From an uncultured Acidobacteriota bacterium (lineage in GTDB: Bacteria > Acidobacteriota > Blastocatellia > RBC074): a DNA stretch of 64,000 nt. Below the pieces are notes generated by a model, which was given only the letters and a program-made list of their open reading frames with translations, did no database searches and was not told where the DNA came from. The translations under genes were made by a program, and so were the position numbers. Below are positions 925 through 59,790 of the stretch, piece by piece; positions within the stretch are counted from its first letter, which is position 1, and every line of letters starts with the position of its first letter. Where the stretch lies: contig CAWDDA010000015.1 of NCBI GenBank assembly GCA_963800895.1, positions 152,994 through 216,993 of the forward strand, written 5' to 3'.

Positions 925-1071
925 TTGAGTGTGCTGAGTGCTGAGTACTGAGTGCTGAGCCTGGAGTTCAAGCTTTTAGCTTGCTCTTGGAACTCGACTT
1001 GTCAAACAGCAAGCTAAAAGCTTGAACTCCAAACTCGGTCAGTACTCAGCATCTGAAGCGGTACAACGTAC
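925..1071. repeat. Composite palindromic intergenic element (heptamer TRCTGAG array + family-A core hairpin + family-D fragment)
   Basis: 4-5 tandem TGCTGAG/TACTGAG heptamers lie at 925-959. The core arms are GGAGTTCAAGCTTTTAGCTTGCT (963-985) and AGCAAGCTAAAAGCTTGAACTCC (1008-1030). A complementary CTCGGTCAGTACTCAGC lies at 1034-1050, and GCGGTACAACGTAC at 1058-1071. Confidence 0.9.
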
Positions 1072-4370: not shown

Positions 4371-4375
4371 AAACA

Positions 4376-4462
4376 GGCATGTTGTACCGCCTTATAGGCG
4401 GAATGGTGACTTTCTCAGGTTAAGAGTGCCACGATTCCGCCTATAAGGCGGTACAACGTACC
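4376..4462. repeat. Family-D hairpin-of-hairpins palindrome
   Basis: The left arm is GGCATGTTGTACCGCCTTATAGGCGGAATGGTG (4376-4408). The right arm is CCACGATTCCGCCTATAAGGCGGTACAACGTACC (4429-4462). Each arm contains its own CCGCC-N5-GGCGG mini-hairpin. Confidence 0.9.
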
Positions 4463-4577
4463 TAAGAGAAGAAAATGATAGAACTGGTCAGTGTTTCGCG
4501 GGATTTTGGGGATGCGAAAGTCGTGCATGCCTTGCGCGACGTGACGCTCAGGATCGAATCGGGGAGAGCGCGTCGCC

Positions 4578-7727: not shown

Positions 7728-7770
7728 GTGCGGGCACGAGCGATCGAGCTGGTGACTCTGAGGGAGAGAA

Positions 7771-7939
7771 GAATTCACCGCAGAGAGCCCAATCGATTTG
7801 AGATTTGAGATTTGTCGTTTGAGATTTGTCATTTGCAACTTGTCACTCAAGGTGCGCCTTGCCACGACAAATAACAAATCCAAAATCTAAAATCTAAAAT
7901 CTCAAATCTCAAATGGATTGGGCACTCTGCGGTGAATTC
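7771..7939. repeat. Palindromic element with 7-nt-periodic stems (GATTTGA family)
   Basis: The outer arms are GAATTCACCGCAGAGAGCCCAATCG (7771-) and its complement ending at 7939. Seven tandem heptamers (GATTTGA/GATTTGT/CATTTGC...) lie at 7795-7843, and seven complementary heptamers (ATCTCAA/ATCTAAA/ATAACAA...) lie at 7864-7912. Confidence 0.9.
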
Positions 7940-7984
7940 TTCGCGTTCCACCATTCCTCCTGAAGGCGATACACTCTCCAAGGC

Positions 7985-10717: not shown

Positions 10718-10814
10718 TACCCACCTGGCATGTCGCTACCGGCGTTTAGCCGGAATCGTTACATTCGAGGTATTAGAATGCAACGATTCCGGCTAAAGGC
10801 CGGTACAACATGCC
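10709..10814. repeat. Family-D hairpin-of-hairpins palindrome (contains the stop codon of the upstream gene)
   Basis: GGCATGTAGTAC (10709-10720) encodes the last codons G-M-stop of the regulator. The arms are GGCATGTCGCTACCGGCGTTTAGCCGGAATCGTT (10727-10760) and AACGATTCCGGCTAAAGGCCGGTACAACATGCC (10782-10814). Confidence 0.9.
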
Positions 10815-11220
10815 TGCTTACCAAATCATAACCAATCGGTCATGACCTCGGGACCCGCGTCCCATTAGAATCCGCTCGTACGTACACTCCGGAGCCACCG
10901 GAGACTCAGCCGAAAGCTGCCCACCGTGGACGCATCCCCGTCCACGACAAACAGAAAGGACCTGTCCATGTCCGAAGTATCGGACCTCATATATAGCCCT
11001 GCTTACTCTCGCCCTGGCGGGAGCTATCTCCTACTGGCCCGGCCCTGTTCGTTCTACAGCGGCTCAGGAAAATGCAAGAATCAGCCAGCAGGCTCTCCGT
11101 CAGATTGAAGCGCTCAATCAGGAAAAGGAGTCACGATCACCTGCGCAACAGAAGATCGATTCTCAATTTCTCTACGCCCTCAAACGCAATCGCCCGGAGT
11201 ATGCGGCCGCATTCAGGACG

Positions 11221-16261: not shown

Positions 16262-16326
16262 TCTGAGTTCCGGCTTTAGCTTGTCGTGAGCGTTAAATGC
16301 AATACAAGCTAAAGCTCGGACTCAGA
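16262..16326. repeat. Family-A variant palindrome
   Basis: The arms are TCTGAGTTCCGGCTTTAGCTTGT (16262-16284) and ACAAGCTAAAGCTCGGACTCAGA (16304-16326). The right arm encodes the last residues and stop codon of the minus-strand dehydrogenase gene. Confidence 0.85.
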
Positions 16327-18228: not shown

Positions 18229-18234
18229 AAGAAA

Positions 18235-18358
18235 GTGGTCAGTGGTCGGTGGTCAGTGTTTGGAGTTCAAGCTTTAGCTTGCTCTCGACACGCTCGATCT
18301 CAAGCAGCAAGCTAAAGCTTGAACTCCAAACACTGACCACTGACCACCGACCACTGGC
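18235..18358. repeat. Composite palindrome: GTGGTCR heptamers + family-A core
   Basis: The heptamers GTGGTCA GTGGTCG GTGGTCA lie at 18235-18255. The core arms are TTTGGAGTTCAAGCTTTAGCTTGCT (18259-18283) and AGCAAGCTAAAGCTTGAACTCCAAA (18306-18330). Complementary CACTGAC/CACCGAC heptamers lie at 18331-18358. Confidence 0.9.
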
Positions 18359-18360
18359 CC

Positions 18361-19992
18361 CTACTTCCGCCACGACTTCTGTGATAGCTCTGCTGAGTTG
18401 GGCAATTCGGCTATAGCTCTTTGCAGCTGTATGTCGAGATCATTGGCAAGCCGTTTCATCTCGTCATAACCGTAAGCCCCCCAGAGGACTTCCTGGCGAA
18501 GCTGCTTTCTAGCCCATACCAGTTCTGACTCAACTGCGGCCGGCGTAAGGCCGTAATCAGGATTGTCGGCGAGGAACTTCGTCATGAAGTTCCGGTAAGC
18601 TGCGAGCACGTCGTCGCCTATCCAATAAGGATTGGCCTTAGCTCCCGGCTTGAATGTGATTGCATCGACCTTGTATTTCTCGAGTCCTGCAATTCTCCCG
18701 GCAGTCAGTTCGCGGGCAAACATGAAAAGCCCGTGATAGAGCCTTCCTTGTGCCGGAGTGAAGATTTCTGAACTGGGAACCTTGATATCGGGCTCGATGC
18801 CGCCGCCGCCATAGACTGCGCGGCCAAGATCGGTGCGTTTCTCCTCGCCCTGCGGCTTGGTTTGCGTGACAGCTGACTGAGGATTGTCGCGACGCGAATA
18901 ATACTCAAAGAGGGACCCGCTCGAATAATCACGCTGTATCAGACGGCCGCTGGGTGTGTAGTAGCGAGCTATGGTTAACGTCAGTCCGGAACCGTCCTTG
19001 AGCGGGAAAATGTGCTGGACAAGACCCTTTCCAAAGCTGCTTTCGCCCACAATCAAACCACGATCGTGATCCTGAATCGCACCCGCGACGATCTCTGAGG
19101 CGGATGCTGATTCGCGATCGATCAGGATGACGAGTGGAAAGTTCTCGGTTGCGCCTGATTCAGCGACGATGTTTCGATCGAAGTTCTTTCCTTCGCGACC
19201 GCGAACCGATACGACAACCTGCCCGCGTCCTAGAAACTTGTCAGCGACCTTGATCGCCTGATCGAGATAACCTCCCCGATTCTCGCGAAGGTCAAGGACG
19301 AACGACTTAGCGCCTCTCTCAGTCAAATCCGCCATCGCTCGTGTGAGCTCATCGCTCGTCGTCGAATGGAATCCTCTCGAAAGATTGACATACCCGATAC
19401 CCGGACGAAGTAGGTAGTAGCTTGTAATTGATGGCAGCGAGACCGAGTCTCTTTTGATTGCAACCGTGATCGGCTCCGTGACGCCAGGACGCCGAACAGC
19501 TACATTAACAGTTGTTCCGCGCTCACCGCGAAGCACGTTGCGCACGCGGTCCGAAAGCCACGTCGAGGTGTCCTTGCCGTCTACAGAAACAATGTGGTCA
19601 CCGTAGCGAAGACCTGCACGATATGCGGGCGTGTCCGAAAAGGTCTCAAGAACATAGGTGCCCCGGTTGCGGGGTGCAATCTGTGCTCCGATTCCGAAGT
19701 AATGGCTCCTTTGTTCGGACGTCAATTCGGCGAAGGCTTTTTTGTCGAAATAGCCCGAGTGGGGGTCCAGCACTCGCAACATTCCCTGGATTCCACCTTT
19801 GGTGAGCGTCTCGTAAGGGAGCTCCTCAACGTAGCTCTCCCGAACCACGTTCATGGCAGCTTGAAAATCGCGATAAATGCGAGCCTGCGTGGTCGCTTGA
19901 AAGGCTTCAACCGGCCGGATAGTCAGCGCCGAGGCGGCCAACAACACTGCGGTCAGAATGAGGAACGTCGTCCCAGCTCTGGTTTTACTCAC
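18361..19992 (-). CDS. S41 family C-terminal processing (tail-specific) peptidase with PDZ domain
   Basis: It has a signal peptide and a PDZ-like GDHIVSVDG segment. RENRGGYL, SASASEIVAGA and FGKGLVQ are S41 motifs. Confidence 0.85.
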   Translation of the reverse strand: MSKTRAGTTFLILTAVLLAASALTIRPVEAFQATTQARIYRDFQAAMNVVRESYVEELPYETLTKGGIQGMLRVLDPHSGYFDKKAFAELTSEQRSHYFGIGAQIAPRNRGTYVLETFSDTPAYRAGLRYGDHIVSVDGKDTSTWLSDRVRNVLRGERGTTVNVAVRRPGVTEPITVAIKRDSVSLPSITSYYLLRPGIGYVNLSRGFHSTTSDELTRAMADLTERGAKSFVLDLRENRGGYLDQAIKVADKFLGRGQVVVSVRGREGKNFDRNIVAESGATENFPLVILIDRESASASEIVAGAIQDHDRGLIVGESSFGKGLVQHIFPLKDGSGLTLTIARYYTPSGRLIQRDYSSGSLFEYYSRRDNPQSAVTQTKPQGEEKRTDLGRAVYGGGGIEPDIKVPSSEIFTPAQGRLYHGLFMFARELTAGRIAGLEKYKVDAITFKPGAKANPYWIGDDVLAAYRNFMTKFLADNPDYGLTPAAVESELVWARKQLRQEVLWGAYGYDEMKRLANDLDIQLQRAIAELPNSAELSQKSWRK

Positions 19993-26610: not shown

Positions 26611-26755
26611 AAGGTGCTGAGTGCTGGAAGAAGGTGCTGATATGTTGCAGTGCTGAGTGCTGAGTATTTCAAGCGTTGGTTTGTTCTCAACATCCAAGCT
26701 TGCATGAACAAGATGAAAGCATGAACTCAAAACTCAGCACTCAGCACTCAGCAAT
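26611..26755. repeat. Composite palindrome with TGCTGAG heptamers and a degenerate family-A-like core
   Basis: GGTGCTGAGTGCTGG...GTGCTGAGTGCTGAGTA forms the left side, and CTCAGCA x3 (26733-26753) the right. The degenerate central core is TTTCAAGCGTTGG...GCATGAACTCAAAA. Confidence 0.8.
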
Positions 26756-28132: not shown

Positions 28133-28182
28133 GATGCGCTGCTCCGATGCCCACTCGAGTTTGGCCACTTAGCAATGATCGA

Positions 28183-28382
28183 CTGACGCCGGAGGCGTCA
28201 AGGATCGTAGCCAGGGGTTGAGTCTTCGAAAACCCCTGGTTGCATTGTGAGAGGAATAGTGCATCCCGGAGGGATGCGAGAAACGATCTGGTGAAACCTG
28301 GTCGTCTTTTCTCGCATCCCTCCGGGATGCAATTGGTAAATGGAATCGATCCAGGGGTTTTCGAAGACTCAACCCCTGGCTA
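28183..28382. repeat. Nested double palindrome (MITE-like, ~200 bp)
   Basis: The outer 33-nt arms lie at 28206-28238 and 28350-28382 (GTAGCCAGGGGTTGAGTCTTCGAAAACCCCTGG and its complement). The inner arms lie at 28260-28282 and 28307-28329 (GCATCCCGGAGGGATGCGAGAAA and its complement). Every arm is itself a mini-hairpin. An extra hairpin TGACGCCGGAGGCGTCA lies at 28183-28199. Confidence 0.9.
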
Positions 28383-28458
28383 CGTTCTCGCACCGCTCCG
28401 CGGTGATTGCGCTGCGGATATTCTTTCCCTTTCGTTCCTTCCGCGATAACATCCGCAG

Positions 28459-33093: not shown

Positions 33094-33097
33094 GTTT

Positions 33098-33190
33098 GAA
33101 GTTCAAGCTTGGAGTTCAAGTTTGGAGTTCACGCTTTTAGCTTGCTCGTTGCATTCTCACTTGCTGACATCAAGCTAACGCTTGAACTCC
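33098..33190. repeat. Family-A element with triplicated left arm
   Basis: The tandem left-arm copies are GAAGTTCAAGCTT, GGAGTTCAAGTTT and GGAGTTCACGCTTTTAGCTTGCT. The right arm is ATCAAGCTAACGCTTGAACTCC (33169-33190) and encodes the MEFKR-stop end of murB. Confidence 0.85.
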
Positions 33191-34230
33191 ATGCCCACTA
33201 AAACCGGCTCGCGGTCAAGCTGAACGCCAAAACGCTCTTTCACCTCACTACTTAATTCTTCCGCAAGAGCGACGATTTCCTGCGCAGTCGCGCCGCCCCG
33301 GTTAACTATAGCCAGCGTATGCTTTCCTGAAATCCCGGCTCGACCCTTTGGGTAGCCACGATGGAAGCCGGCCTGTTCGATCAGCCATGCAGCGGAAATC
33401 TTGTATCGGCCATCAGGCTCCGGAAAAGCAACCACTTCAGTCATAGTGGACTTTCGGATCATCTCCAGGACATCGTTCGAGACTATGGGATTCTTGAAGA
33501 ACGATCCGACACTTCGCGAATCAGGGTCCCGTGGATCGATGACCATTCCCTTCGAGGCGCGGATTTTGAGCACGGCAGCTCGCACATTCGAGAGCGTTGC
33601 AGCCTTTCCCGTTTCCGTAAAGAACGACACAAGATCGCGGTACGTCAAGGTTGGCTTTTCATCTCTCCTCAGCCTGAAAACAACTTCGAGAACAATGTAA
33701 CGATCGCGGGCCGTCGTATTGAACATGCTACTGCGATAGCCAAAGCCGCAGTCGGCATTACTAAGTGTCAGTGATTTCATGGACTGCCGGTCGATGACGC
33801 GAACAGATTCAATCGTCTGACTGACTTCCTGACCGTATGCGCCTACATTCTGTATCGGGGTTGCACCGGTGTATCCAGGTATACCGCTCAGCGTCTCAAA
33901 ACCGGCCAGGTTTGCGGCTACGCATTTGCTGACGACAGTGTCCCACTCTTCACCGGCAGCCACTGAAACGATGGTTGCGGCGCCACCGCCCTCAATTCGG
34001 ATTCCTTTGATTGCGATGTGAATCACAAGGCCAGGAAAGCCGTCATCAGAAATTACAACGTTGCTTCCACCTCCCAGGATAAGCACGGGAAGATCACGCG
34101 ACGCAGCGAATGCGAGAGCGTCGAAAATTCCCGCCTCGTCATTTACAGAGATGAAGAATCCTGCAACGCCTCCGACTCCGAGGGTGGTCAAAGGCGAAAG
34201 CGGGACTGCTTCGCGCAGCCCCGTCATCAT
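33175..34230 (-). CDS. murB: UDP-N-acetylmuramate dehydrogenase
   Basis: TTLGVGG and LILGGGSNV mark the FAD-binding domain. The C-terminal domain contains SVGSFFKNP. Confidence 0.9.
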   Translation of the reverse strand: MMTGLREAVPLSPLTTLGVGGVAGFFISVNDEAGIFDALAFAASRDLPVLILGGGSNVVISDDGFPGLVIHIAIKGIRIEGGGAATIVSVAAGEEWDTVVSKCVAANLAGFETLSGIPGYTGATPIQNVGAYGQEVSQTIESVRVIDRQSMKSLTLSNADCGFGYRSSMFNTTARDRYIVLEVVFRLRRDEKPTLTYRDLVSFFTETGKAATLSNVRAAVLKIRASKGMVIDPRDPDSRSVGSFFKNPIVSNDVLEMIRKSTMTEVVAFPEPDGRYKISAAWLIEQAGFHRGYPKGRAGISGKHTLAIVNRGGATAQEIVALAEELSSEVKERFGVQLDREPVLVGMEFKR

Positions 34231-34683: not shown

Positions 34684-36054
34684 ATGACGCGCGAACGAGT
34701 TCTTATAGTCGATGATGAAAACTCCGCACGAGTTGGCTTGAGCGAAATCGTCGAGGCCTGGGGCTACGAATCAAAGACGGCGACGGATGGTATGGACGCT
34801 CTCGCGGTCGCTTCAGAATTCAAACCTGCCGCTCTCATCACAGATGTAATCATGCCCCGCCTGGATGGTTTTGGCCTGCTCGCACGTTTGAGAGAAGACA
34901 TGCCGGAAACAAGGGTCATCCTTCTTACAGGGCAGGGAAACGTCGAGGATGCGGTTCGAGCAGTCAAGGAAGAAGGGGCTTTTTACTACTTCGAGAAGCC
35001 GATCAACACGCGTCAGCTACAGCTTGTGCTGCAAAGAGCTATCGAGCAGTCGGCGACTCAACACGAAAACCTGCGACTTCGGCGGCGCCTCAGTGAGTAC
35101 GGCGTTTTTGGAAAGCTTGTAGGTTCGTCGCACGCAATGCGTCAAATCTATACGATCATCGAGCAGGTGGCAGGGTCCGCAGTCTCTGTTCTCATCTCAG
35201 GTGAGTCAGGTACCGGAAAAGAGGTCGTAGCAAATACGATTAATGACATGAGTCCTCGCTCAACGCGGCCATTTGTAGCGATCAATTGCTCCGCGATTCC
35301 GGAAACGCTCATGGAATCCGAACTCTTTGGCCACGAGCGTGGTGCGTTTACCGGCGCCATCAGTCGTCGTGAAGGGTGTTTCGAGCTTGCAAATACCGGC
35401 ACGCTGTTTCTGGACGAGATTGCTGAAATGCCTGTCATGCTTCAGGCAAAACTGCTTCGTGTGCTCGAGGAACGAAGGCTGCGGCGGGTCGGCGGCTCGC
35501 GCGAAATAGCCGTCGATGTGCGGGTCCTGGCCGCTACTAACAAAGACCCACAGGAGGCAGTGCGGCGGGGAGAATTGCGCGAAGACCTGCTCTATCGATT
35601 GAATGTGATTCACATCAAGCTACCAACGCTTCGTGAGCGCCGCGAAGATATCCCGCTGCTGGCTCGACACATGGTTGATGATCTGGGGCAACGGCACAGC
35701 CGCCAGGTGCGATTGATCGCGCCGGAAGTGCTGGAGCTTTTTTCGAGATATTCGTGGCCGGGAAATGTCCGTGAGCTTCGCAACGTCGTGGAACACGCGA
35801 TTGTTGTATGCGAAGGGCAGCGGATTGAGCGAAGCCATCTGCCGCATCATCTCGAGGTGGGAAGCCCTATCACCCCTGATGAGACGATCTCATTTCCTGT
35901 CGGAGTTACTCTGGAACAGGCCGAGCGCGAATTGATTCTGCGCACACTGATAAAGACGAATAACAACAAGACGCGTGCAGCAGAGCTTCTTCAGGTCAGC
36001 CTCAAGACCCTCCACAACAAACTCAAGGCCTACCGCGAAGCTGAGGATGTTTAA
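34684..36054 (+). CDS. Sigma-54-dependent response regulator (NtrC/Fis family)
   Basis: The REC domain reads VLIVDDE...DVIMP. The AAA+ domain has [14 protein letters not shown] and the ESELFGHE loop. A C-terminal Fis-type HTH follows. ATG 34684 is the preferred start. Confidence 0.88.
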
Positions 36055-36058
36055 AGTT

Positions 36059-36183
36059 CCTGGGAACGCTGGCCTCTGGCGTCGGGAAAGCCGCGATTTG
36101 GAGTGCGGCGACTTGTCGCCGCTTTCTCTTCGTTGCGGGTTGCTTCAGCGGACGAAAAGCGGCGCCAAGTCGCCGCACTCCAA
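36059..36183. repeat. Family-C half element + family-E palindrome
   Basis: CCTGGGAACGCTGGCCTCTGGCG lies at 36059-36081. The family-E arms are TTTGGAGTGCGGCGACTTGTCGCCGCTTTC (36097-36126) and GAAAAGCGGCGCCAAGTCGCCGCACTCCAAA (36153-36183). Confidence 0.9.
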
Positions 36184-39972: not shown

Positions 39973-40062
39973 CCTGGGAACGCTGGCCTCTGGCCGGCGT
40001 TCTTTCTGGATCACGCGCCGGCCAGGGGCCAGCGTTCCCAGGGCAAGCTAAAGCTTGAACTC
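39973..40062. repeat. Family-C palindrome + family-A half element
   Basis: The family-C arms are CCTGGGAACGCTGGCCTCTGGCCGGCG (39973-39999) and CGCCGGCCAGGGGCCAGCGTTCCCAGG (40016-40042). GCAAGCTAAAGCTTGAACTC follows at 40043-40062. Confidence 0.9.
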
Positions 40063-40070
40063 AAAACCGG

Positions 40071-40397
40071 TCATCGAAACCGGATCTGAACTCGGTTGGA
40101 GAGTGTGCCGTCCACCTGAATATACAGTTCCAGTATGCCTTTGCCTGACAATGACTGTGGCAAAGCGAGATTAACCTGGTCAAGGCCGTCGAACGCACCC
40201 TGGTTGCCTGAGTAATTGACGGAAAGCTCGTCAACTCCAGCGAATGCTCGAACCTCACCTCTCGCGCCTCGGATCCCTGTTCCAAACAGAACGAGGAACG
40301 CGCTTCCAGTGTCATTGTCAACCTGTATTGGAACCGCTTCCCACAGATTGCGCTCACCTTCGAACCTTGCAACCGGCGTCCATGCCCTCAGTTCCAT
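40071..40397 (-). CDS. C-terminal fragment of giant secreted protein (end of TIGR03437-like domain)
   Basis: LVLFGTGIRG...VNYSGNQGAFDGLDQVNLALPQSLSGKG...VDGTLSNRVQIRF matches the pattern of the Solibacter-type uncharacterised C-terminal domain. Confidence 0.6.
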   Translation of the reverse strand: MELRAWTPVARFEGERNLWEAVPIQVDNDTGSAFLVLFGTGIRGARGEVRAFAGVDELSVNYSGNQGAFDGLDQVNLALPQSLSGKGILELYIQVDGTLSNRVQIRFR

Positions 40398-42168
40398 CCG
40401 ATGACACGGTCACGACGAAGGCCGCAGGAGGCCCCTCACCCGTCGATGACACAGTAAAGAATGCAGGTGCTACATTCTCCACCGGGACTACGCCTCTCGC
40501 GACAACATCGTCGTCTTGAACGATCTCGATCGTTGCCATGCCGAGTGCCGTATCGGACGGAACAATGTAATTGATCTGTGTTGGAGACACAAAGACGAGT
40601 GACGCGAAGCGCTGGACACCGAGCCCATCTCGCACTCGCAAGCGCGCGCCGGCTAGCTCAGTCTTAAGCTCGATTGACGATCGGGCTAGAGTCTCTGCTA
40701 CTAATCCTGAGCCAAAGGCTGTCGCGAGACTGCCAGGTGCAACCTCTGCAAGACCCGGATCAGCCGCTGAAACGGTGACCAGCGTCTTTGTATTTTCCGA
40801 TGCACCCGCGCTGAAGGCAGCACGAACAGTTGAAGCATCCACGGTTACTGCTTCACGCGCGATGGGCTCATCGCCGAACCCGATGACAAACGGATTTGCC
40901 TGTTCGCGTACTCGCGTGAATTGCAGATCGACAATGTTCTGTCGGCCCGGTGCGATAGTTGCACCTGGCGCCAGGACAAGCGCAACACCGATCCGTCCCT
41001 CTGATGCACGAGTTCTATTGAGGAGGACTTGTGCACTTGTGATCGGTGAAGATGCGCCAGCGAAGCTCCAATCGCGCGGGTCGAAATTGATACTCCACCC
41101 GAGCGAGTTTTCGTCGCCGTTGGCATTGAGCGAGATCGATGCGACACGAGCGTCTCCGTTACGATAAGGCCGAAGCTCGCCATCGATACGGCTTACGCGA
41201 CCTTCCTGACGAGCTGAGCTCCCACGTCCGGAAAGGCTCGAACTGGCCGCAGCTGAGGCAGCGCCGGCGGGCCCGCCAGCCGTTGTTACGGGATCAAGTC
41301 CGGTAGCAAAGCGCCCGGCCTGAACATAATCTGCGAGACTGACAGAGTTGTCTCCTTTTGTATCTCTCGGAGCACAGTCAGCGCGCCTAAACTCTGCGCC
41401 AGCAGCCGGCGTATCGAGTCCGATTGCGAATCGTCCAATCTGTACAAAGTCCTGAAGATTGACAGTGCCGTTGTTCTTTCCATTTGGTCGCGGCGTAACG
41501 TCCGCTTCATAGCCGCCAGTTGAAATACTCAAACTCCCGCCATTGAATGTGGTTCCTGCCGTAAGACTGCTCGCGTCCGCGCCAACAACCTGGCGCGTAA
41601 TCGGCTGGTCGCCCACTGCGAGTGAGGCAGACGTGGCAGTAGTGTTCGCTACCATAAAGGTGACGGTAGCGAGTTGTCGGTTGCCTGTGGGGAAGGACTG
41701 TCCCTGATCCACAGTGGCGGCAAGTCCTACGCGACCCTGTGCAGCCTGGTTTTCGTTCCTGAGCAATGCAGTTGCATCAGAACCCCTGGCCGAACTCTGA
41801 TAAGTAAGAATGGCCGGGTCAAAGACAACGCTCAATCCGACAGTGTTTTCGTTTCCAAGCGCGGACATTTCAATTGGCACCGTGACACTGCTTCCGGGGC
41901 TGCCGTTCGAGTTTGCTATCCGCACCGACTCTTCCGTTCGGAACCGGAGTGGGAGTCGGTGAGGGTGTCGGTGTCGGTGTCGGACCCGGAGTTGGCGTCG
42001 GTGTTGGACCGGGAGTTGGCGTCGGCGTTGGGCCCGGCGTCGGAGTAGGTGTTGGAGTTGGCGTCGGTTGATTTGAAAGCAACGTGCGATGCGGTCCGCC
42101 GCCTTCTGTACCGATGTACAGATAGCCATTCTGCACTGCAAATGTATTGACGTTGAGCCCAAAGCCAC
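40354..42168 (-). CDS. Middle fragment of giant secreted protein: cohesin-like / dockerin-like pair / cohesin-like / TIGR03437-like start
   Basis: The real coding part starts at about 41940, after the PT linker. The first cohesin-like segment is SPGSSVTVPIEMSALGNENTVGLSVVFDP. Two dockerin-like repeats read ADVTPRPNGKNNGTVNLQDFVQIGRFAIGLD and DCAPRDTKGDNSVSLADYVQAGRFATGLD. A second cohesin-like segment follows, then VAPGSLATAFGSGL...VSPTQINYIVP. Confidence 0.6.
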   Translation of the reverse strand: MALGSTSIHLQCRMAICTSVQKAADRIARCFQINRRQLQHLLRRRAQRRRQLPVQHRRQLRVRHRHRHPHRLPLRFRTEESVRIANSNGSPGSSVTVPIEMSALGNENTVGLSVVFDPAILTYQSSARGSDATALLRNENQAAQGRVGLAATVDQGQSFPTGNRQLATVTFMVANTTATSASLAVGDQPITRQVVGADASSLTAGTTFNGGSLSISTGGYEADVTPRPNGKNNGTVNLQDFVQIGRFAIGLDTPAAGAEFRRADCAPRDTKGDNSVSLADYVQAGRFATGLDPVTTAGGPAGAASAAASSSLSGRGSSARQEGRVSRIDGELRPYRNGDARVASISLNANGDENSLGWSINFDPRDWSFAGASSPITSAQVLLNRTRASEGRIGVALVLAPGATIAPGRQNIVDLQFTRVREQANPFVIGFGDEPIAREAVTVDASTVRAAFSAGASENTKTLVTVSAADPGLAEVAPGSLATAFGSGLVAETLARSSIELKTELAGARLRVRDGLGVQRFASLVFVSPTQINYIVPSDTALGMATIEIVQDDDVVARGVVPVENVAPAFFTVSSTGEGPPAAFVVTVSSDGTEGMDAGCKVRR

Positions 42169-50015: not shown

Positions 50016-50125
50016 GGCGAATGTCGCCATCCCGGGAGCGCCAGGCTCCAGCCTGGCGCGTGTGGTGTCGCCGAAACCCCTGGTCTTGCTGACGCGCCAG
50101 GCTGGAGCCTGGCGCTCCCGGGATG
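50016..50125. repeat. Family-F hairpin-of-hairpins palindrome
   Basis: A small hairpin GGCGAATGTCGCC lies at 50016-50028. The arms are CATCCCGGGAGCGCCAGGCTCCAGCCTGGCGCG (50028-50060) and CGCGCCAGGCTGGAGCCTGGCGCTCCCGGGATG (50093-50125). Each arm contains GCGCCAGGC...GCCTGGCGC. Confidence 0.9.
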
Positions 50126-53886: not shown

Positions 53887-54073
53887 TACTGCTCCGTAGG
53901 CGGAATCCCCATTATTTATCATTTGTCATTTGCCATTTATCATTTGTTATTTGTGATTTGTCATGGAAGGCGACTGCCGGAGAATGACAAACGACTTGCA
54001 CAAATAACAAATGACAAATGCAAATGACAAATGACAAATAATAAGGATTCCGTCTTCCTCGGTACTACCTGCC
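53878..54073. repeat. Composite palindrome: family-D-like outer arms + ATTTGTC heptamer stems
   Basis: GGCATGTAGTAC (53878-53889) provides the G-M-stop of the upstream gene. Seven heptamers ATTTATC/ATTTGTC/ATTTGCC... lie at 53914-53962. Complementary CAAATGA/CAAATAA heptamers lie at about 53999-54043. The outer right arm GGATTCCGTCTTCCTCGGTACTACCTGCC ends at 54073. Confidence 0.9.
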
Positions 54074-56561: not shown

Positions 56562-57644
56562 GTGATCGGGGGAGTAGTTTCCGGAAGCAAGCTAATGATA
56601 AACGGCAAGACCGTTCCGGATGCCCAGCTTGCACAAAACGAAGAAGAGGGAAAGATAACAATAAGCAAGTTGCCTGAAGGAGAGCACGATATCACTCTGG
56701 AAAAGGCCGGATACGATATCTGGAGAAAAAGCATCCGCGTCATCCCGGGCCGTTCGGTTCCGGAGTCTGCAGAAATGAAGCGCGCCACTATCACATTGAC
56801 TATACGTTCACTTACGGGTGCGCGCGTCAATGTCGATCGAATCGACCGAGGAACGATACAGCCTGACGGTACGCTGGTTATCTCTGAGCTAGAGCCGGGC
56901 GAGCACAACCTTCGCTTGTCGCTCGAGGGATACGATGACGCTCAGCAAACTTTGCCCCTCAATCTGGCGAACCGAAAGCCGGTTATTCCAATCGAGCTCA
57001 GGCGTACACCGGAATCTGTAGAAGCCTCGGAGGAGTTTATTACCGGGGCCAGTCGATGGGTTGTACCATCAACCTGGCAGCTCGATAGAAAGGGCTTGAA
57101 CGTTTCCGGGCAAACTGTCGGTCTCTTCAAAGACCCGACTGAAAAGCGCGCGTTCAATTACTACGCTGATTTCGACATGAACTTTGATGCGCGATTTGAG
57201 AATGGACGCGGTGTGGCATGGATCGCTCGAGCAAAGGATGACAGGAACTATTATATGTTTCAGCTCTCGACTGAATCAGTTTCGGCGGCTCGGGCACGGA
57301 TGAGCTTTTTCATTTGCAGGGAAGGGCGTTGTGAGCTCAAAGACAGCCGTCCGGTCGTCGAGAAGCTCGACACTCCGAACGATTCGTATCACATCATTCT
57401 CGAAGCCCGTGGCTCGGAGTTTACCGTGCGCATTCGCGTTTTGAGCACGCCGAGACCGGACGATCCGCAAAAGCTGGCCGTCTTCAATGACGACACGTTT
57501 CAGATCGGGGGTATTGGCTTTCGCGGGTTTGATGATAGCCGGGCTTTAATTCAAAGCCTTATCGTACGACCAAAACCGAGAAGTACTAGTTTGGAGTTCA
57601 AGCTTTGGCTCGCCTGGGAACGCTGGCCTCTGGCCGGCGAGTGA
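56562..57644 (+). CDS. PEGA-domain protein, C-terminal fragment with jelly-roll (LamG/DUF1080-like) domain
   Basis: The PEGA-like units are ISKLPEGEHDITLEKAGYD and ISELEPGEHNLRLSLEGYD. The C-terminal beta-sandwich-like region is uncertain. The last 18 codons (LEFKLWLAWERWPLAGE) are read from the repeat element. Confidence 0.55.
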   Translation: MIGGVVSGSKLMINGKTVPDAQLAQNEEEGKITISKLPEGEHDITLEKAGYDIWRKSIRVIPGRSVPESAEMKRATITLTIRSLTGARVNVDRIDRGTIQPDGTLVISELEPGEHNLRLSLEGYDDAQQTLPLNLANRKPVIPIELRRTPESVEASEEFITGASRWVVPSTWQLDRKGLNVSGQTVGLFKDPTEKRAFNYYADFDMNFDARFENGRGVAWIARAKDDRNYYMFQLSTESVSAARARMSFFICREGRCELKDSRPVVEKLDTPNDSYHIILEARGSEFTVRIRVLSTPRPDDPQKLAVFNDDTFQIGGIGFRGFDDSRALIQSLIVRPKPRSTSLEFKLWLAWERWPLAGE

Positions 57645-57692
57645 TTGCGAAGAAACGCCGGCCAGAGGCAGCGTTCCCAGAGCCCCAAACTC
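57590..57692. repeat. Family-A half element + family-C palindrome
   Basis: TTTGGAGTTCAAGCTTTGGCT lies at 57590-57610. The family-C arms are CCTGGGAACGCTGGCCTCTGGCCGGCG (57613-57639) and CGCCGGCCAGAGGCAGCGTTCCCAG (57656-57680). Confidence 0.9.
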
Positions 57693-59000: not shown

Positions 59001-59777
59001 ATGCAAGCCGAAGACTACGCCTACATGTATGATCTCGAAAAACATTTCTGGTGGTTCGCAGGAATGCGCGAGATTACTGGAATTCTCCTCGATCGCGAAT
59101 GCGGTCCGGCGCGAGACCGGCGCATTCTTGATGCCGGGTGCGGCACTGGAGCCAACGTTGAATGGCTCGCGCGCTATGCCGGAAAAGGCAGGGTCATAGG
59201 TATTGATCTGGTCTCCACGGCGCTGGGATTCTGCAGGCAACGAGCGCTGGATGGGCTGGTTCAAGCGTCAGCGACGCACCTCCCTTTTGGAGACGAGACA
59301 TTCGACCTGGTTACAAGCTTCGACGTGCTCGTTCAGATTGAAGGAGAGGGCAATGATGATCGAGCCATCAGCGAAATGTATCGCGTTCTCAAACCCGGTG
59401 GGATTGCATTTGTTCGCGGCGCTGCTTATGGATGGATGCGCAGCGGGCACGACCAGGCGCTGGGCACTCAGCGGCGTTACAATCTCGGCGAGCTGAAAGA
59501 AAAGATCGAACGTCCGGGCTTCACCGTTCTGCGCACAACGTACGCTAATTCGCTTGCTTTCCCGCTCGTTCTGTTGCGGAGACTCGTGCTGAAGCCTGTT
59601 GGCCTGGCAGACCGTGGTTCAGACGTCAAACCTCTGCCACCCGGGCTGGAATGGCTTAACAGGATTCTGACGAATGGACTGCGAACTGAGGCGCGCTATC
59701 TGAAAGACCCGCAGGCAAGCCTTCCTGCAGGGCTTTCGGCTATCTGCATTGCCCGCAAACCGCTGCGAGCAAGCTAA
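59001..59777 (+). CDS. Class I SAM-dependent methyltransferase
   Basis: ILDAGCGTGAN is motif I, and FDLVTSFDVL and LKPGG follow. The stop TAA lies in a family-A half element. Confidence 0.8.
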   Translation: MQAEDYAYMYDLEKHFWWFAGMREITGILLDRECGPARDRRILDAGCGTGANVEWLARYAGKGRVIGIDLVSTALGFCRQRALDGLVQASATHLPFGDETFDLVTSFDVLVQIEGEGNDDRAISEMYRVLKPGGIAFVRGAAYGWMRSGHDQALGTQRRYNLGELKEKIERPGFTVLRTTYANSLAFPLVLLRRLVLKPVGLADRGSDVKPLPPGLEWLNRILTNGLRTEARYLKDPQASLPAGLSAICIARKPLRAS

Positions 59778-59790
59778 ATCTTGAACTCGA
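59765..59790. repeat. Solo family-A half element shared by two convergent gene ends
   Basis: GAGCAAGCTAAATCTTGAACTCGAAA contains the TAA stop of the plus-strand methyltransferase. On the other strand it contains ...FEFKI-TAG of the aminotransferase. Confidence 0.8.

What the first reader, a model, noticed from the sequence alone, without database searches (positions are those of the whole stretch)
963..1030. Family-A palindrome GGAGTTCAAGCTTTAGCTTGC recurs at >=8 gene ends as a modular building block
**Copies seen.**
- Full hairpins (both arms of about 23 nt) lie at 963-1030, 18259-18330 and 33111-33190. The last has a triplicated left arm.
- A diverged but still self-complementary variant lies at 16262-16326.
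- A degenerate copy lies at about 26665-26732.
- Solo half-copies lie at 40043-40062, 57590-57610 and 59765-59790.

**How it is used.** The core is always intergenic or overlaps a gene's 3' end. It combines freely with other repeat families: heptamer arrays, family C and family D. This gives nested stem-loops of 100-170 nt without a U-tract.

**Inference.** This looks like a REP/BIME-like or MITE-like system, or a non-canonical bidirectional terminator or mRNA-stabiliser. The modular mix-and-match of arm families is unusual.
Basis: seen in the sequence. Interest (0 to 1): 0.6.

Follow-up and report, generated by a model that had tools for sequence, protein, structure and literature searches.

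The report
REP doublets of a RAYT transposase
The recurring palindrome is a REP element, a small hairpin repeat copied around the chromosome by a dedicated tyrosine transposase (RAYT); here, in a soil acidobacterium, it is unusually abundant and often sits inside hairpins made of 7-base tandem repeats, but it is a known kind of element.

Summary
All eight copies are at the stated places, and the assembly carries 726 arms in 443 loci (a reversed-genome control gives 2).

Each arm is a REP unit: head G(G/A)AGTT, a 5-bp stem CAAGC/GCTTG and a TTTA loop. Most copies are tail-to-tail doublets with a 23-24 nt spacer that varies between copies.

About 200-aa RAYT genes in the same-genus genome and in many relatives (Blastocatellia/Pyrinomonadaceae, Verrucomicrobiota and others) are flanked by this unit or by variants whose stems change compensatorily. 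No cognate RAYT was found in this 74%-complete assembly.

Copies lie almost entirely outside genes and are twice as dense between convergent genes. They start about 34 nt after stop codons and have no U-tract.

Comparison with the congeneric genome shows both inherited copies and rapid turnover. Outer heptamer arrays often stay in place while the inner module is swapped.

The "modular mixing" comes from several co-resident Y1-transposase repeat systems plus heptamer arrays, which also flank four small four-helix-bundle genes.

This scan reached the same REP/RAYT reading earlier on another piece of this genome (e1-2876015). I tested it independently here. Verdict: a new member of a known kind.

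The parts
927..1056 (.). Composite hairpin. GTGCTGA heptamer array at 931-959. REP arm at 963-984. Variable 24-nt spacer at 985-1008. Inverted REP arm at 1009-1030. Degenerate complementary heptamers follow to about 1056. It starts 4 nt after the stop codon at 923.
   Evidence: I14; -71.6 kcal/mol, z -9.3. The orthologous gap in G001 holds a head-to-head doublet instead.
16264..16324 (.). Decaying tail-to-tail REP doublet between convergent genes. The arms are TGAGTTCCGGCTTTAGCTTGT and ACAAGCTAAAGCTCGGACTCA.
   Evidence: A more canonical orthologous copy is present in G001.
18234..18356 (.). Canonical composite. AGTGGTC heptamers at 18234-18258. REP arm at 18259-18282. Spacer at 18283-18306. 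Inverted arm at 18307-18330. Complementary heptamers at 18331-18356.
   Evidence: (I4: 50-nt arms, 96% complementary). The orthologous copy in G001 has identical arms, 3 differences in the 24-nt spacer, and heptamer arrays of different length and type.
26649..26753 (.). Degenerate REP doublet enclosed by AGTGCTG / ACTCAGC heptamer arrays.
   Evidence: (D8, I6, I25). In G001 the same arrays enclose a different, also degenerate inner doublet.
33094..33194 (.). Tail-to-tail REP doublet whose left head (TTGGAGTTCAAGC) is tandemly triplicated. It overlaps the 3' end of the minus-strand ORF 33175-34230.
   Evidence: (period 13, 3.2 copies). G001 has a differently arranged element in this gap.
39973..40067 (.). 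Family-C palindrome (arms 39973-39999 and 40016-40042) abutted by one REP-A arm at 40043-40063 on the minus strand. This is a half-copy of the nested A(C)A arrangement.
   Evidence: (I24). Complete A-C-A nests occur elsewhere in the genome.
57593..57669 (.). REP-A arm at 57593-57613 on the plus strand, directly followed by a family-C palindrome at 57611-57669. The right A arm is mostly deleted.
   Evidence: (I3). The whole insert is absent from the orthologous G001 gap, and no flanking duplication is seen.
59769..59789 (-). Solo REP-A arm overlapping the 3' ends of two convergent ORFs.
   Evidence: G001 has a full doublet at the orthologous position, so this copy is a deletion remnant or the G001 copy was completed later.

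Best explanation
**What it is.**
- Family A is a REP (repetitive extragenic palindrome) family.
- Each roughly 24-nt arm is one REP unit. It has a linker and head (T/G)(A/T)(T/C)-G(G/A)AGTT, a 5-bp stem CAAGC/GCTTG around a TTTA loop, and a 1-nt tail.
- Two units in inverted, tail-to-tail orientation with a 23-24 nt spacer form the common REPIN-like doublet.

**How it most likely works.**
- The units are recognised as folded single-stranded DNA by a roughly 200-aa REP-associated tyrosine (HUH/Y1) transposase, a RAYT.
- The RAYT resembles subclass 2.8 of Quentin et al. Its gene is itself flanked by these units with the heads pointing outward.
- In trans, the enzyme cuts and rejoins at the foot of the hairpin. 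This copies or moves the gene-less doublets without a target-site duplication.
- Copies survive where they do least harm, just after stop codons, and especially in or next to existing palindromes.

**Why the modules mix.**
- The same gaps are used by other Y1-transposase-linked repeats: family B, family D and a 260-nt element.
- They are also used by hairpins whose arms are 7-nt tandem arrays. Those arrays also flank four small four-helix-bundle genes.
- This shared use gives the nested, mix-and-match stem-loops.

**Shown and inferred.**
- Shown: the anatomy, copy number, location, RAYT flanking in relatives, stem covariation, and turnover between sister genomes.
- Inferred: catalysis by the RAYT, the single-strand mechanism, and how inner modules are exchanged.
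For: **Abundance and location**
- The genome has 726 arms in 443 loci: 249 tail-to-tail doublets, 20 head-to-head doublets and 167 solo arms. The reversed-genome control gives 2.
- About 95% lie outside good ORFs. Occupancy is 30% of convergent gaps, 11% of tandem gaps and 15% of divergent gaps.
- In tandem gaps the median distance from the upstream stop codon is 34 nt.

**Link to a RAYT gene**
- In same-genus G001, a RAYT gene at C29 has the motifs ILPNHYH and NYIHHNPV. Family-A doublets flank it on both sides.
- In the class, 47 of 151 genomes have a homologue (E <= 1e-20), usually one per genome.
- 11 of 30 fetched loci have A-like arms on both sides of the gene. G025 has exact GGAGTTCAAGCTTTAGCTTGC arms with heads outward.
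- In named genomes, 29 of 80 RAYT loci carry A-like arms.

**Hairpin covariation**
- I selected sites by head and loop only, across 110 RAYT loci. Of 472 such sites, 363 have a perfect 5-bp stem.
- These use 25 different stem sequences. With the 3' partner slid by 2 nt, none is perfect.

**The protein**
- It matches NCBIfam NF047646, REP-associated tyrosine transposase, at E 1.2e-20.
- It matches E. coli TnpA-REP, PDB 4ER8, with the HUH and Tyr motifs aligned.
- Its motifs NHYH, W[YH], YxHHNP, its roughly 200-aa length and its PWHSPPH N-terminus fit subclass 2.8 (PMC6006769).

**Fit to published REP behaviour**
- Tail-to-tail REP dimers with variable spacers are the published rule (PMC3733652).

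**Mobility**
- Identical spacers occur in different flank contexts.
- Three G001 copies share one spacer at gaps where G000 has other content.
- Of 23 mapped G000 loci, 9 have no family-A arm in G001. Of 23 mapped G001 loci, 9 have none in G000.
- No flanking duplication is seen at the presence/absence site 57590.

**Other systems in the genome**
- A paralogous RAYT at G000 C25 is flanked by a different REP, family B. So two REP/RAYT systems coexist.
Against: **No cognate gene in this genome**
- No RAYT flanked by family A was found in this assembly. The five PF01797 hits have no family-A arm within 3 kb.
- The locus syntenic to G001's RAYT is empty. The assembly is only 74% complete.

**The closest cognate gene may be broken**
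- G001's cognate RAYT reads with two frame shifts. One lies in a run of five A's, and the second junction was not precisely located. These could be assembly errors or a pseudogene.

**Association across the class is loose**
- By my hand tally, 12 genomes have >=10 arms but no strong homologue.

**Departures from the canonical REP**
- The head is G(G/A)AG, not GT(A/G)G.
- The 5-bp stem is at the short end of the REP range.
- Pfam's Y1_Tnp model does not reach this protein, and the NCBIfam score of 73.8 is below the curated cut-off of 80.

**Spacer divergence is not explained by simple copying**
- Spacers are almost saturated with differences, about 12-13 of 24 between copies, while the arms are near-identical. 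Simple copying of whole doublets does not by itself explain this.
Confidence: 0.82

Rival explanations
1. The hairpins are primarily host signals: bidirectional factor-dependent terminators, 3'-end mRNA stabilisers, or protein-binding or supercoiling sites. On this view they are kept by selection on the host, and the transposase link is secondary.
For: - They sit just after stop codons and are twice as dense between convergent genes.
- The hairpins are extremely stable.
- In three orthologous live copies, the six 19-nt cores show 0 differences in 114 sites, while the spacers show 9 in 72.
- Such roles are documented for E. coli REP/BIME elements (background in PMC3733652).
Against: - There is no U-tract enrichment.
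- Solo arms show no orientation bias, 46 against 43.
- About 40% of loci are not shared with a congeneric genome whose genes are roughly 80% identical. Occupied gaps often hold a different repeat family there.
- Some orthologous copies let their arms decay: 312746 has 9 of 48 arm differences, and 16264 is also degenerate.
- The arm-conservation test is biased, because I found loci by their arms.
- No RNA data could be obtained.
Confidence: 0.1
2. Family A is a MITE: a deletion derivative of a DDE-type insertion sequence, with terminal inverted repeats and target-site duplications.
For: It has a palindromic structure, a high copy number, intergenic sites and presence/absence differences between sister genomes.
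Against: - I saw no target-site duplication at the insert absent from G001 (57590).
- I found no IS with these ends.
- The genes found between outward-facing arms are Y1/HUH transposases, not DDE enzymes.
- The conserved unit is a small hairpin whose stem covaries, which is typical of REPs.
Confidence: 0.03
3. The family-A core belongs to the heptamer-array element, the shell of the four-helix-bundle (PF05635) gene cassettes. On this view it is moved by whatever moves those cassettes, not by a RAYT.
For: - 36% of doublets have 7-nt arrays on both sides and 19% on one side, against 0.3% at random positions. The junction phase is fixed.
- All four PF05635 genes are flanked by complementary arrays of one of the heptamer kinds that also flank family-A doublets.
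- Three sister copies in G001 all sit in GTGCTGA arrays.
Against: - 44% of doublets have no arrays.
- Copies with identical spacers occur both with and without arrays, and copies differing by 3 of 23 spacer bases sit in different array kinds.
- Arrays persist in orthologous gaps while the inner module changes.
- Of the flanks of 17 RAYT loci that I read, none carries these heptamer arrays; L067 shows tandem repeats of the REP head.
- None of the four PF05635 genes has a family-A arm directly at its ends.
Confidence: 0.05

Closest known systems
REPIN-RAYT systems (REP doublets plus a single-copy REP-associated tyrosine transposase; Bertels & Rainey 2011, PMC3116915; E. coli TnpA-REP, PDB 4ER8)
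   Same: - Short hairpin units with a conserved 5' head, in hundreds of extragenic copies, mostly as inverted doublets.
- The same units flank an HUH/Tyr transposase gene that is usually single-copy per genome.
- Both vertical persistence and turnover are seen.
- No target-site duplication was seen at the one site inspected.
   Different: - The head is G(G/A)AG rather than GTAG.
- The stem is only 5 bp.
- Doublet spacers are almost unrelated between copies.
- No cognate RAYT was found in this assembly.
- More than half of the doublets sit inside 7-nt tandem arrays.
TnpA-Y1 subclass 2.8 of Quentin et al. 2018 (PMC6006769)
   Same: The motifs NHYH, W[YH] and Y-x-H-x-NP, a length of about 199 aa, a proline-containing N-terminal motif, and flanking REPs with a GT[AG]G-type foot.
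   Different: - That subclass was described from 8 cyanobacterial proteins, with a remark that relatives exist in other phyla.
- Here the clade is found in Blastocatellia/Pyrinomonadaceae, Verrucomicrobiota, Planctomycetota, Lentisphaerota and others.
- I matched motifs only. I did not place the protein in their tree.
GTAG-tagged REP families and their TT/HH dimers (Di Nocera et al. 2013, PMC3733652)
   Same: The head-stem-loop-tail layout. Tail-to-tail dimers have variable spacers of fixed length, singletons are remnants of dimers, and DNA is inserted between dimer partners.
   Different: In the paper's one passage that names Acidobacteria, the listed species are not Blastocatellia. This sequence family and its nesting in heptamer arrays turned up in none of my three library searches.
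E. coli BIMEs (mosaics of REP types with linkers)
   Same: A mosaic, modular combination of palindromic units in the gaps after genes.
   Different: - The modules here belong to different transposase-linked families and to heptamer arrays. They are not two REP variants with fixed linkers.
- IHF or gyrase binding was not tested.
Inverted heptamer arrays (GGGAATC in Xanthomonas, GGGGA(C/T)T in Nostoc; Rehm et al. 2015, PMC4692102) and cyanobacterial STRR repeats
   Same: Arrays of about four 7-nt units, often in convergent pairs, lying after gene ends. The G-rich kinds could form G-quadruplexes. Copy number varies between relatives.
   Different: - Here the arrays form the outer stem around a REP doublet.
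- They also flank PF05635 genes.
- That paper reports no association with mobile elements.

Membership tests
REP / REPIN-RAYT | A short palindromic unit (20-40 nt) that folds into a hairpin, supported by compensatory stem changes between lineages | tested here: met
   The unit has a 5-bp stem CAAGC/GCTTG and a TTTA loop. I selected 472 sites by head and loop alone, next to 110 RAYT genes. Of these, 363 have 5/5 pairs, using 25 stem sequences. The slid control gives 0.
REP / REPIN-RAYT | A conserved 5' tetranucleotide GT[AG]G at the foot of the hairpin | tested here: inconclusive
   The head here is GGAG, AGAG or TGAG followed by TT. Some relatives of the same RAYT clade have GTAG, for example L080, L118 and L135. 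So this is a variant of the tag, not the canonical tag.
REP / REPIN-RAYT | High copy number, predominantly extragenic | tested here: met
   443 loci in 4.26 Mb. About 95% lie outside good ORFs.
REP / REPIN-RAYT | The same units flank a RAYT gene in inverted orientation | tested here: met
   Met in relatives:
- G001 C29.
- G025 with exact arms, and 10 further class genomes.
- 29 of 80 named loci.

Not met in this genome: none was found in the 74%-complete assembly, and the syntenic locus is empty.
REP / REPIN-RAYT | The transposase has HUH and catalytic Tyr motifs and is present at low copy number | tested here: met
   - NHYH and Y-[VI]-H-H-N-P are invariant in 12 aligned proteins.
- NF047646 matches at E 1.2e-20, though at 73.8 bits against a cut-off of 80.
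- PDB 4ER8 aligns over both motifs.
- The gene is mostly present once per genome.
REP / REPIN-RAYT | Evidence that doublets are copied or moved within genomes | tested here: met
   - Identical spacers occur in different flanks.
- Three same-spacer copies in G001 are absent from the orthologous G000 gaps.
- About 40% of loci are not shared between congeners.
REP / REPIN-RAYT | The RAYT binds and cleaves its REP as single-stranded DNA | not testable with these tools
   This needs biochemistry.
MITE (DDE-transposon derivative) | Target-site duplication and a related autonomous IS with the same terminal inverted repeats | tested here: not met
   I saw no duplication at the 57590 presence/absence site. 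The genes found between outward-facing arms are Y1 transposases.
Intrinsic (Rho-independent) terminator | A GC-rich hairpin followed by a U-tract | tested here: not met
   A T4+/A4+ run lies next to the hairpin base in 8 of 195 copies, against 4% at random positions.
Known RNA families (Rfam) | A match to a curated covariance model | tested here: not met
   The window has 0 matches at gathering thresholds.

The most novel reading that the evidence does not exclude
The centre of these hairpins may be a slot that is exchanged site-specifically. Heptamer-array shells, which also carry four-helix-bundle (PF05635) genes, stay at a locus. Meanwhile REP doublets of several RAYT systems, other palindromes or genes are swapped in and out at a fixed junction phase.

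The swapping might occur by Y1-transposase cleavage and rejoining at hairpin feet. If so, two unrelated kinds of element cooperate in a cassette-exchange system, rather than merely piling up in the same gaps.
Probability: 0.2. Interest if true: 0.6.

Novelty: new member of a known kind. Interest (0 to 1): 0.35.

Why it matters
**Scale and annotation.** With 443 loci, roughly one intergenic gap in ten of this assembly holds a family-A copy. Annotation pipelines do not name the element. It will confuse gene-end calls, assembly and comparative alignment in Blastocatellia.

**Extension of known biology.** REPIN-RAYT biology has been studied almost only in Proteobacteria. Here it appears in a soil acidobacterial class, with a RAYT clade (subclass 2.8-like) that has barely been described.

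**Possible further use.** The combination seen here could make this a useful natural system for asking how REP populations are maintained and how palindromic elements target each other:
- The arms are nearly identical between copies.
- The spacers are almost saturated with differences.
- REP populations appear orphaned of their transposase.
- The elements are regularly enclosed in heptamer arrays.

**Limits.** None of this changes the classification. It is a REP family.

Tried and rejected
**Looking for the cognate transposase**
- PF01797 in the own genome gave five hits, none with family-A arms within 3 kb.
- The strong IS200-like hits in relatives (L028-L057) are flanked by other repeats. 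The family-A arms near L038 and L039 only sit at neighbouring gene ends.

**Other databases**
- Rfam gave no hit in the window.
- Plasmid and phage collections gave no match to the 134-nt composite.
- A look-up of the doublet consensus in earlier scan notes by sequence found nothing.
- Literature searches found no paper linking REPs with Blastocatellia. They also found none linking PF05635 genes with heptamer arrays.

- A first fuzzy-regex census with BESTMATCH undercounted arms. A full-genome fuzzy scan timed out. I replaced both with a seeded scan.

**Ideas I dropped**
- I considered that the spacer might be a small conserved hairpin of its own. Only the outermost position pairs often, at 0.89; deeper positions pair at 0.2-0.56.
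- I considered that heptamer units might derive from duplicated REP heads. Tandem head duplications do exist (33096-33136; L067). I could not test the idea further and I make no claim.
Full report
**1. Observation**

- The 21-mer GGAGTTCAAGCTTTAGCTTGC has 6 matches at <=3 mismatches in the window, where 0 are expected.
- The copy at 963 has one extra T in each arm, so that search missed it. The sequence is plain: arms 963-984 and 1009-1030, spacer 985-1008.
- The window is G000:C15:152994-216993 of a 4.26-Mb, 27-contig assembly that is 74% complete.

A seeded fuzzy scan of the whole assembly gives the following.
- There are 726 arms with <=3 errors: 196 exact, 265 with one error, 183 with two and 82 with three. 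The reversed, non-complemented genome gives 2.
- The arms cluster into 443 loci: 249 "+-" doublets, 20 "-+" doublets and 167 solo arms.
- Eight loci in 64 kb is therefore the normal density for this genome.

**2. Anatomy**

The common element reads, from outside to inside:
- A linker and head, such as TAT-GGAGTT, TTT-AGAGTT or GTT-TGAGTT.
- CAAGC-TTTA-GCTTG-C.
- A 23-24 nt spacer.
- The mirror image of the above.

Each arm contains its own small hairpin, with a 5-bp stem and a TTTA loop. In the terms of Di Nocera et al., the "+-" doublets are tail-to-tail (TT) dimers and the "-+" doublets are head-to-head (HH) dimers.

Spacers of TT doublets behave differently from the arms.
- They have only a weak consensus, T(C/G)TT...TCGA...AA(G/C)A.
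- They differ from each other at about 12-13 of 24 positions.
- The arms, in contrast, are almost identical between copies.

That paper states that TT dimers as a rule have variable spacers (PMC3733652). So this feature, odd as it looks, has precedent.

The whole palindromes have these properties.
- Their median length is 92 nt, with a 10-90% range of 73-142 nt.
- They fold very stably. For example, 18229-18362 folds at -96.2 kcal/mol with z = -15.
- No Rfam family matches the window.

**3. Position relative to genes**

I called genes crudely, as the longest non-overlapping ORFs filtered by a dicodon score.
- About 95% of loci lie outside good ORFs.
- Occupancy is 30% of convergent gaps, 11% of tandem gaps and 15% of divergent gaps. 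Per kb of gap the figures are 0.70, 0.37 and 0.32.
- In tandem gaps the arm starts a median 34 nt after the upstream stop codon. That is about the length of a four-unit heptamer array.
- T-runs are not enriched: 8 of 195, against 4% at random positions.
- Solo arms have no orientation preference relative to transcription, 46 against 43.

These are not canonical intrinsic terminators.

**4. The transposase link**

*In this genome.* The five PF01797 hits have no family-A arm within 3 kb.

*In the same-genus genome G001* (353 arms). A weak PF01797 hit at C29 lies between two family-A HH doublets.
- Its reading frames contain the HUH motif (ILPNHYHLL), the tyrosine motif (NYIHHNPV) and WPWSS, spread over three frames.
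- One shift lies in a run of five A's. I cannot tell an assembly error from a pseudogene.
- The syntenic locus in G000 (C21) lacks both the gene and the doublets.

*A paralogue in G000.* G000 has a paralogue at C25:269115-269700, 53% identical.
- It also has one apparent frame shift.
- It is flanked by a different REP, family B (GTTGTA-CCGGC-GTTTA-GCCGG).
- Family B also occurs in the window at 4371-4463 and 10737-10819.

*Across the class.* I searched 151 genomes of the class with the read-through G001 protein.
- 47 genomes have matches at E <= 1e-20 (this count includes G000). About 38 of them are strong, roughly 200-aa homologues, mostly one per genome.
- In 11 of the 30 fetched loci the gene is bracketed by A-like arms.
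- G025 has exact arms arranged as REP REP - gene - REP REP, with heads outward.

*The protein.*
- It matches NCBIfam NF047646, "REP-associated tyrosine transposase", at E 1.2e-20. Its 73.8 bits are just under the curated 80.
- It matches E. coli TnpA-REP (PDB 4ER8) over both motifs.
- Pfam Y1_Tnp does not reach it.
- Its motifs NHYH, W[YH] and YxHHNP, its roughly 200-aa length and its PWHSPPH N-terminus match subclass 2.8 of Quentin et al. That subclass was described from Cyanobacteria, with relatives noted elsewhere (PMC6006769).

**5. Covariation**

I scanned named genomes with an alignment of 12 of these proteins.
- The scan found 441 relatives.
- The best are in Pyrinomonadaceae and Blastocatellia MAGs, followed by Verrucomicrobiota, Planctomycetota, Lentisphaerota and others.
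- Some labels are clearly mis-binned contigs, so I do not lean on the cross-phylum claim.

In the 400-nt flanks, the units share one plan: T-(T/C)-x-GAGT-x, then a 5-bp stem, then TT(T/C)A, then the complementary stem. The stem sequence differs from lineage to lineage, for example CAAGC, CAACC, CCGCC, ACGCC, CCGAC, CAGGC and CACGC.

To avoid circularity I selected sites by head and loop alone.
- Of 472 such sites in 110 RAYT loci, 363 have five Watson-Crick pairs and 42 have four.
- They use 25 stem sequences.
- With the 3' partner slid by two bases, none has five pairs.

Family A is thus one allele (CAAGC) of a REP superfamily tied to this RAYT clade. The small hairpin inside each "arm" is the recognised structure.

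**6. Distribution in the class**

The 19-nt core at <=1 mismatch occurs in 53 of 151 class genomes, in 6 of 10 families.
- G000 has by far the most, at 568. The next highest are 163, 118 and 90. The controls are essentially zero.
- By my hand tally, 17 of 38 genomes with a strong RAYT homologue have >=10 arms. Of the other 112 genomes, 12 do.
- These genomes are related to each other, and many are incomplete.

RAYT and REP-A therefore go together, but apparent orphan populations like the one in G000 are not rare.

**7. The "modules"**

*Heptamer arrays.*
- Of 248 TT doublets, 90 have 7-nt tandem arrays on both flanks and 48 on one flank. At random positions the frequency is 0.3%.
- The kinds seen are GTGCTGA, GGGGTC(A/G), (A/C)GTGGTC and ATTTGTC/GATTTGA.
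- The arrays are always complementary across the element. They join the REP linker at a fixed phase...GCTGAG|TAT|GGAG...GGGGTCAGGG|TAT|GGAG...GTGGTCGGTG|TAT|GGAG.
- The genome has four PF05635 (23S_rRNA_IVP, four-helix-bundle) genes. Each is flanked by complementary arrays of one of these heptamer kinds.
- The arrays are therefore the ends of a second kind of element. The REP doublet occupies the same central place as those genes.

*Inner palindromes.* Between the tails of the two A arms there may be further palindromes:
- Family C: CCTGGGAACGCTGGCCTCTGGCCGGCG.
- Family D: CCCGGGAGCGCCAGGCTCCAGCCTGGCGCG.
- A CGCGAGGCCGAAGGCCGAAGC family.

These give three-layer nests.

*Links to other transposases.*
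- Family D flanks another Y1-like gene, L011.
- The 260-nt repeat at window 28150-28420 flanks an IS200-like gene, L010.

The mixing of arm families thus reflects several co-resident Y1-transposase repeat systems plus the heptamer shells.

**8. Comparison with the congeneric genome**

Genes of G000 and G001 are about 80% identical, and long stretches are collinear.

*In the window:*

| Window locus | G000 | G001 |
|---|---|---|
| 18259 | Doublet | Orthologous doublet with identical arms, 3 of 24 spacer differences, and heptamer arrays differing in number and type |
| 16264 | Degenerate doublet | More canonical orthologous doublet |
| 59769 | Solo arm | Full doublet |
| 915-1083 | A arms | A arms in a different arrangement |
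| 33111 | A arms | A arms in a different arrangement |
| 40043 | A arms | A arms in a different arrangement |
| 57590 | Insert present | Insert absent; no flanking duplication seen |
| 36040 | Other repeats | Family-A doublet |
| 53898 | Other repeats | Family-A doublet |

The two G001-only doublets at 36040 and 53898, and the copy at 26665, share one spacer (TCTTGTGACGATCGAATGCAACC). They are recent copies of one another.

*In a further 293-kb collinear segment*:
- 23 G000 loci could be mapped. Ten are TT doublets in both genomes, but only five of those have related spacers. Four have family-A arms in another arrangement. Nine have no family-A arm in G001.
- In the reverse direction, 14 of 23 mapped G001 loci are shared and 9 are not.
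- At three gaps the outer heptamer arrays are kept while the inner module differs: 374379 and 263584, and G001 position 189676.
- At two gaps family B replaces family A: 471454 and 260477.

*Sister copies within G000.* Copies with identical spacers occur both with and without arrays. Copies whose spacers differ by 3 of 23 bases sit in different array kinds. So the doublet can move on its own.

**9. Are the arms maintained?**
- In three clear orthologous pairs (18259, 335843, 473854), the six 19-nt cores show no difference in 114 sites. The spacers differ at 9 of 72 sites.
- At equal rates, my rough arithmetic gives about 0.875^114, or roughly 2.5e-7.
- The test is biased, because I found loci by their arms.
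- Other orthologous copies do let their arms decay: 312746 has 9 of 48 arm differences with a 23/24 spacer, and 16264 is also degenerate.

I take this as suggestive only. Either live copies are kept intact by selection or by re-copying, or only intact ones are counted.

**10. Reading**

Family A is a REP family with REPIN-like TT doublets, belonging to a RAYT clade that resembles subclass 2.8.
- Catalysis, the single-strand mechanism and the way inner modules are swapped are inferred from what is known of IS200/IS605 and TnpA-REP enzymes. None of this is shown here.
- A host role as terminator, stabiliser or binding site may have been added.

**11. Novelty**
- The kind is known. The same scan reached the REP/RAYT reading earlier on another piece of this genome (e1-2876015). 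I tested it independently and it holds.
- Three library searches turned up no paper that describes REPs in Blastocatellia or links PF05635 genes with heptamer arrays.
- I file the finding as a new member of a known kind. The regular nesting in heptamer-array shells is its most unusual trait.

Noticed in passing
window 28150-28420: A roughly 260-nt palindromic repeat with arms at 28190-28246 / 28344-28400 and 28260-28286 / 28305-28331. It has more than 40 copies at about 90% identity in the sister genome G001. The same ends flank an IS200-like Y1 transposase gene at G000:C13:87708-88040 (L010). The orthologous G001 gap is only 122 nt long.
   Followed up: partly
window 4371-4463 and 10737-10819; G000:C25:269003-269745: A second REP family, B (GTTGTA-CCGGC/CCGCC-GTTTA-...), with about 84 arms in the genome. 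It flanks a paralogous RAYT gene at C25:269115-269700. That gene is 53% identical to the G001 family-A RAYT gene and has one apparent frame shift near its N-terminus.
   Followed up: partly
G000:C26:448926-449243, C25:147475-147789, C12:3825-4118, C15:13442-13732 (outside the window): Each of the four PF05635 (23S_rRNA_IVP, four-helix-bundle) genes is flanked by complementary 7-nt tandem arrays of a different kind: GGGGTCR, GGTGGxC, GTGCTGA and ATTTGTC. The same four kinds flank family-A doublets.
   Followed up: partly
window 7768-7942 and 53898-54055: Long hairpins whose arms are GATTTGA/ATTTGTC heptamer arrays, with no REP inside. The first is wholly absent from the orthologous G001 gap, which is 6 nt long. 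The second is replaced in G001 by GTGCTGA arrays around a family-A doublet, while an outer GGCGGAATC stem is kept.
   Followed up: partly
window 50028-50125; G000:C19:17801-18019 (L011): The family-D palindrome (CCCGGGAGCGCCAGGCTCCAGCCTGGCGCG, about 95 arms) flanks a weak Y1-transposase-like gene on both sides. It is also found nested between family-A arms.
   Followed up: partly
window 39973-40042, 57611-57669, 36057-36085: The family-C palindrome (CCTGGGAACGCTGGCCTCTGGCCGGCG, about 97 arms) has no associated gene that I could find. It often replaces the whole spacer of a family-A doublet exactly.
   Followed up: no
G021 (another family of the class), e.g. C2:34042/34130, C41:13039/13127, C144:13791/13879: In this genome the same family-A cores occur as doublets with a constant 88-nt offset. 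So the spacer length of the doublet differs between lineages.
   Followed up: no
window 41940-42068: A 12/24-nt tandem repeat (GTCGGTGTTGGACCCGGAGTTGGC-like) inside a long minus-strand ORF (40354-42168). It is probably a low-complexity repeat region of a protein.
   Followed up: no
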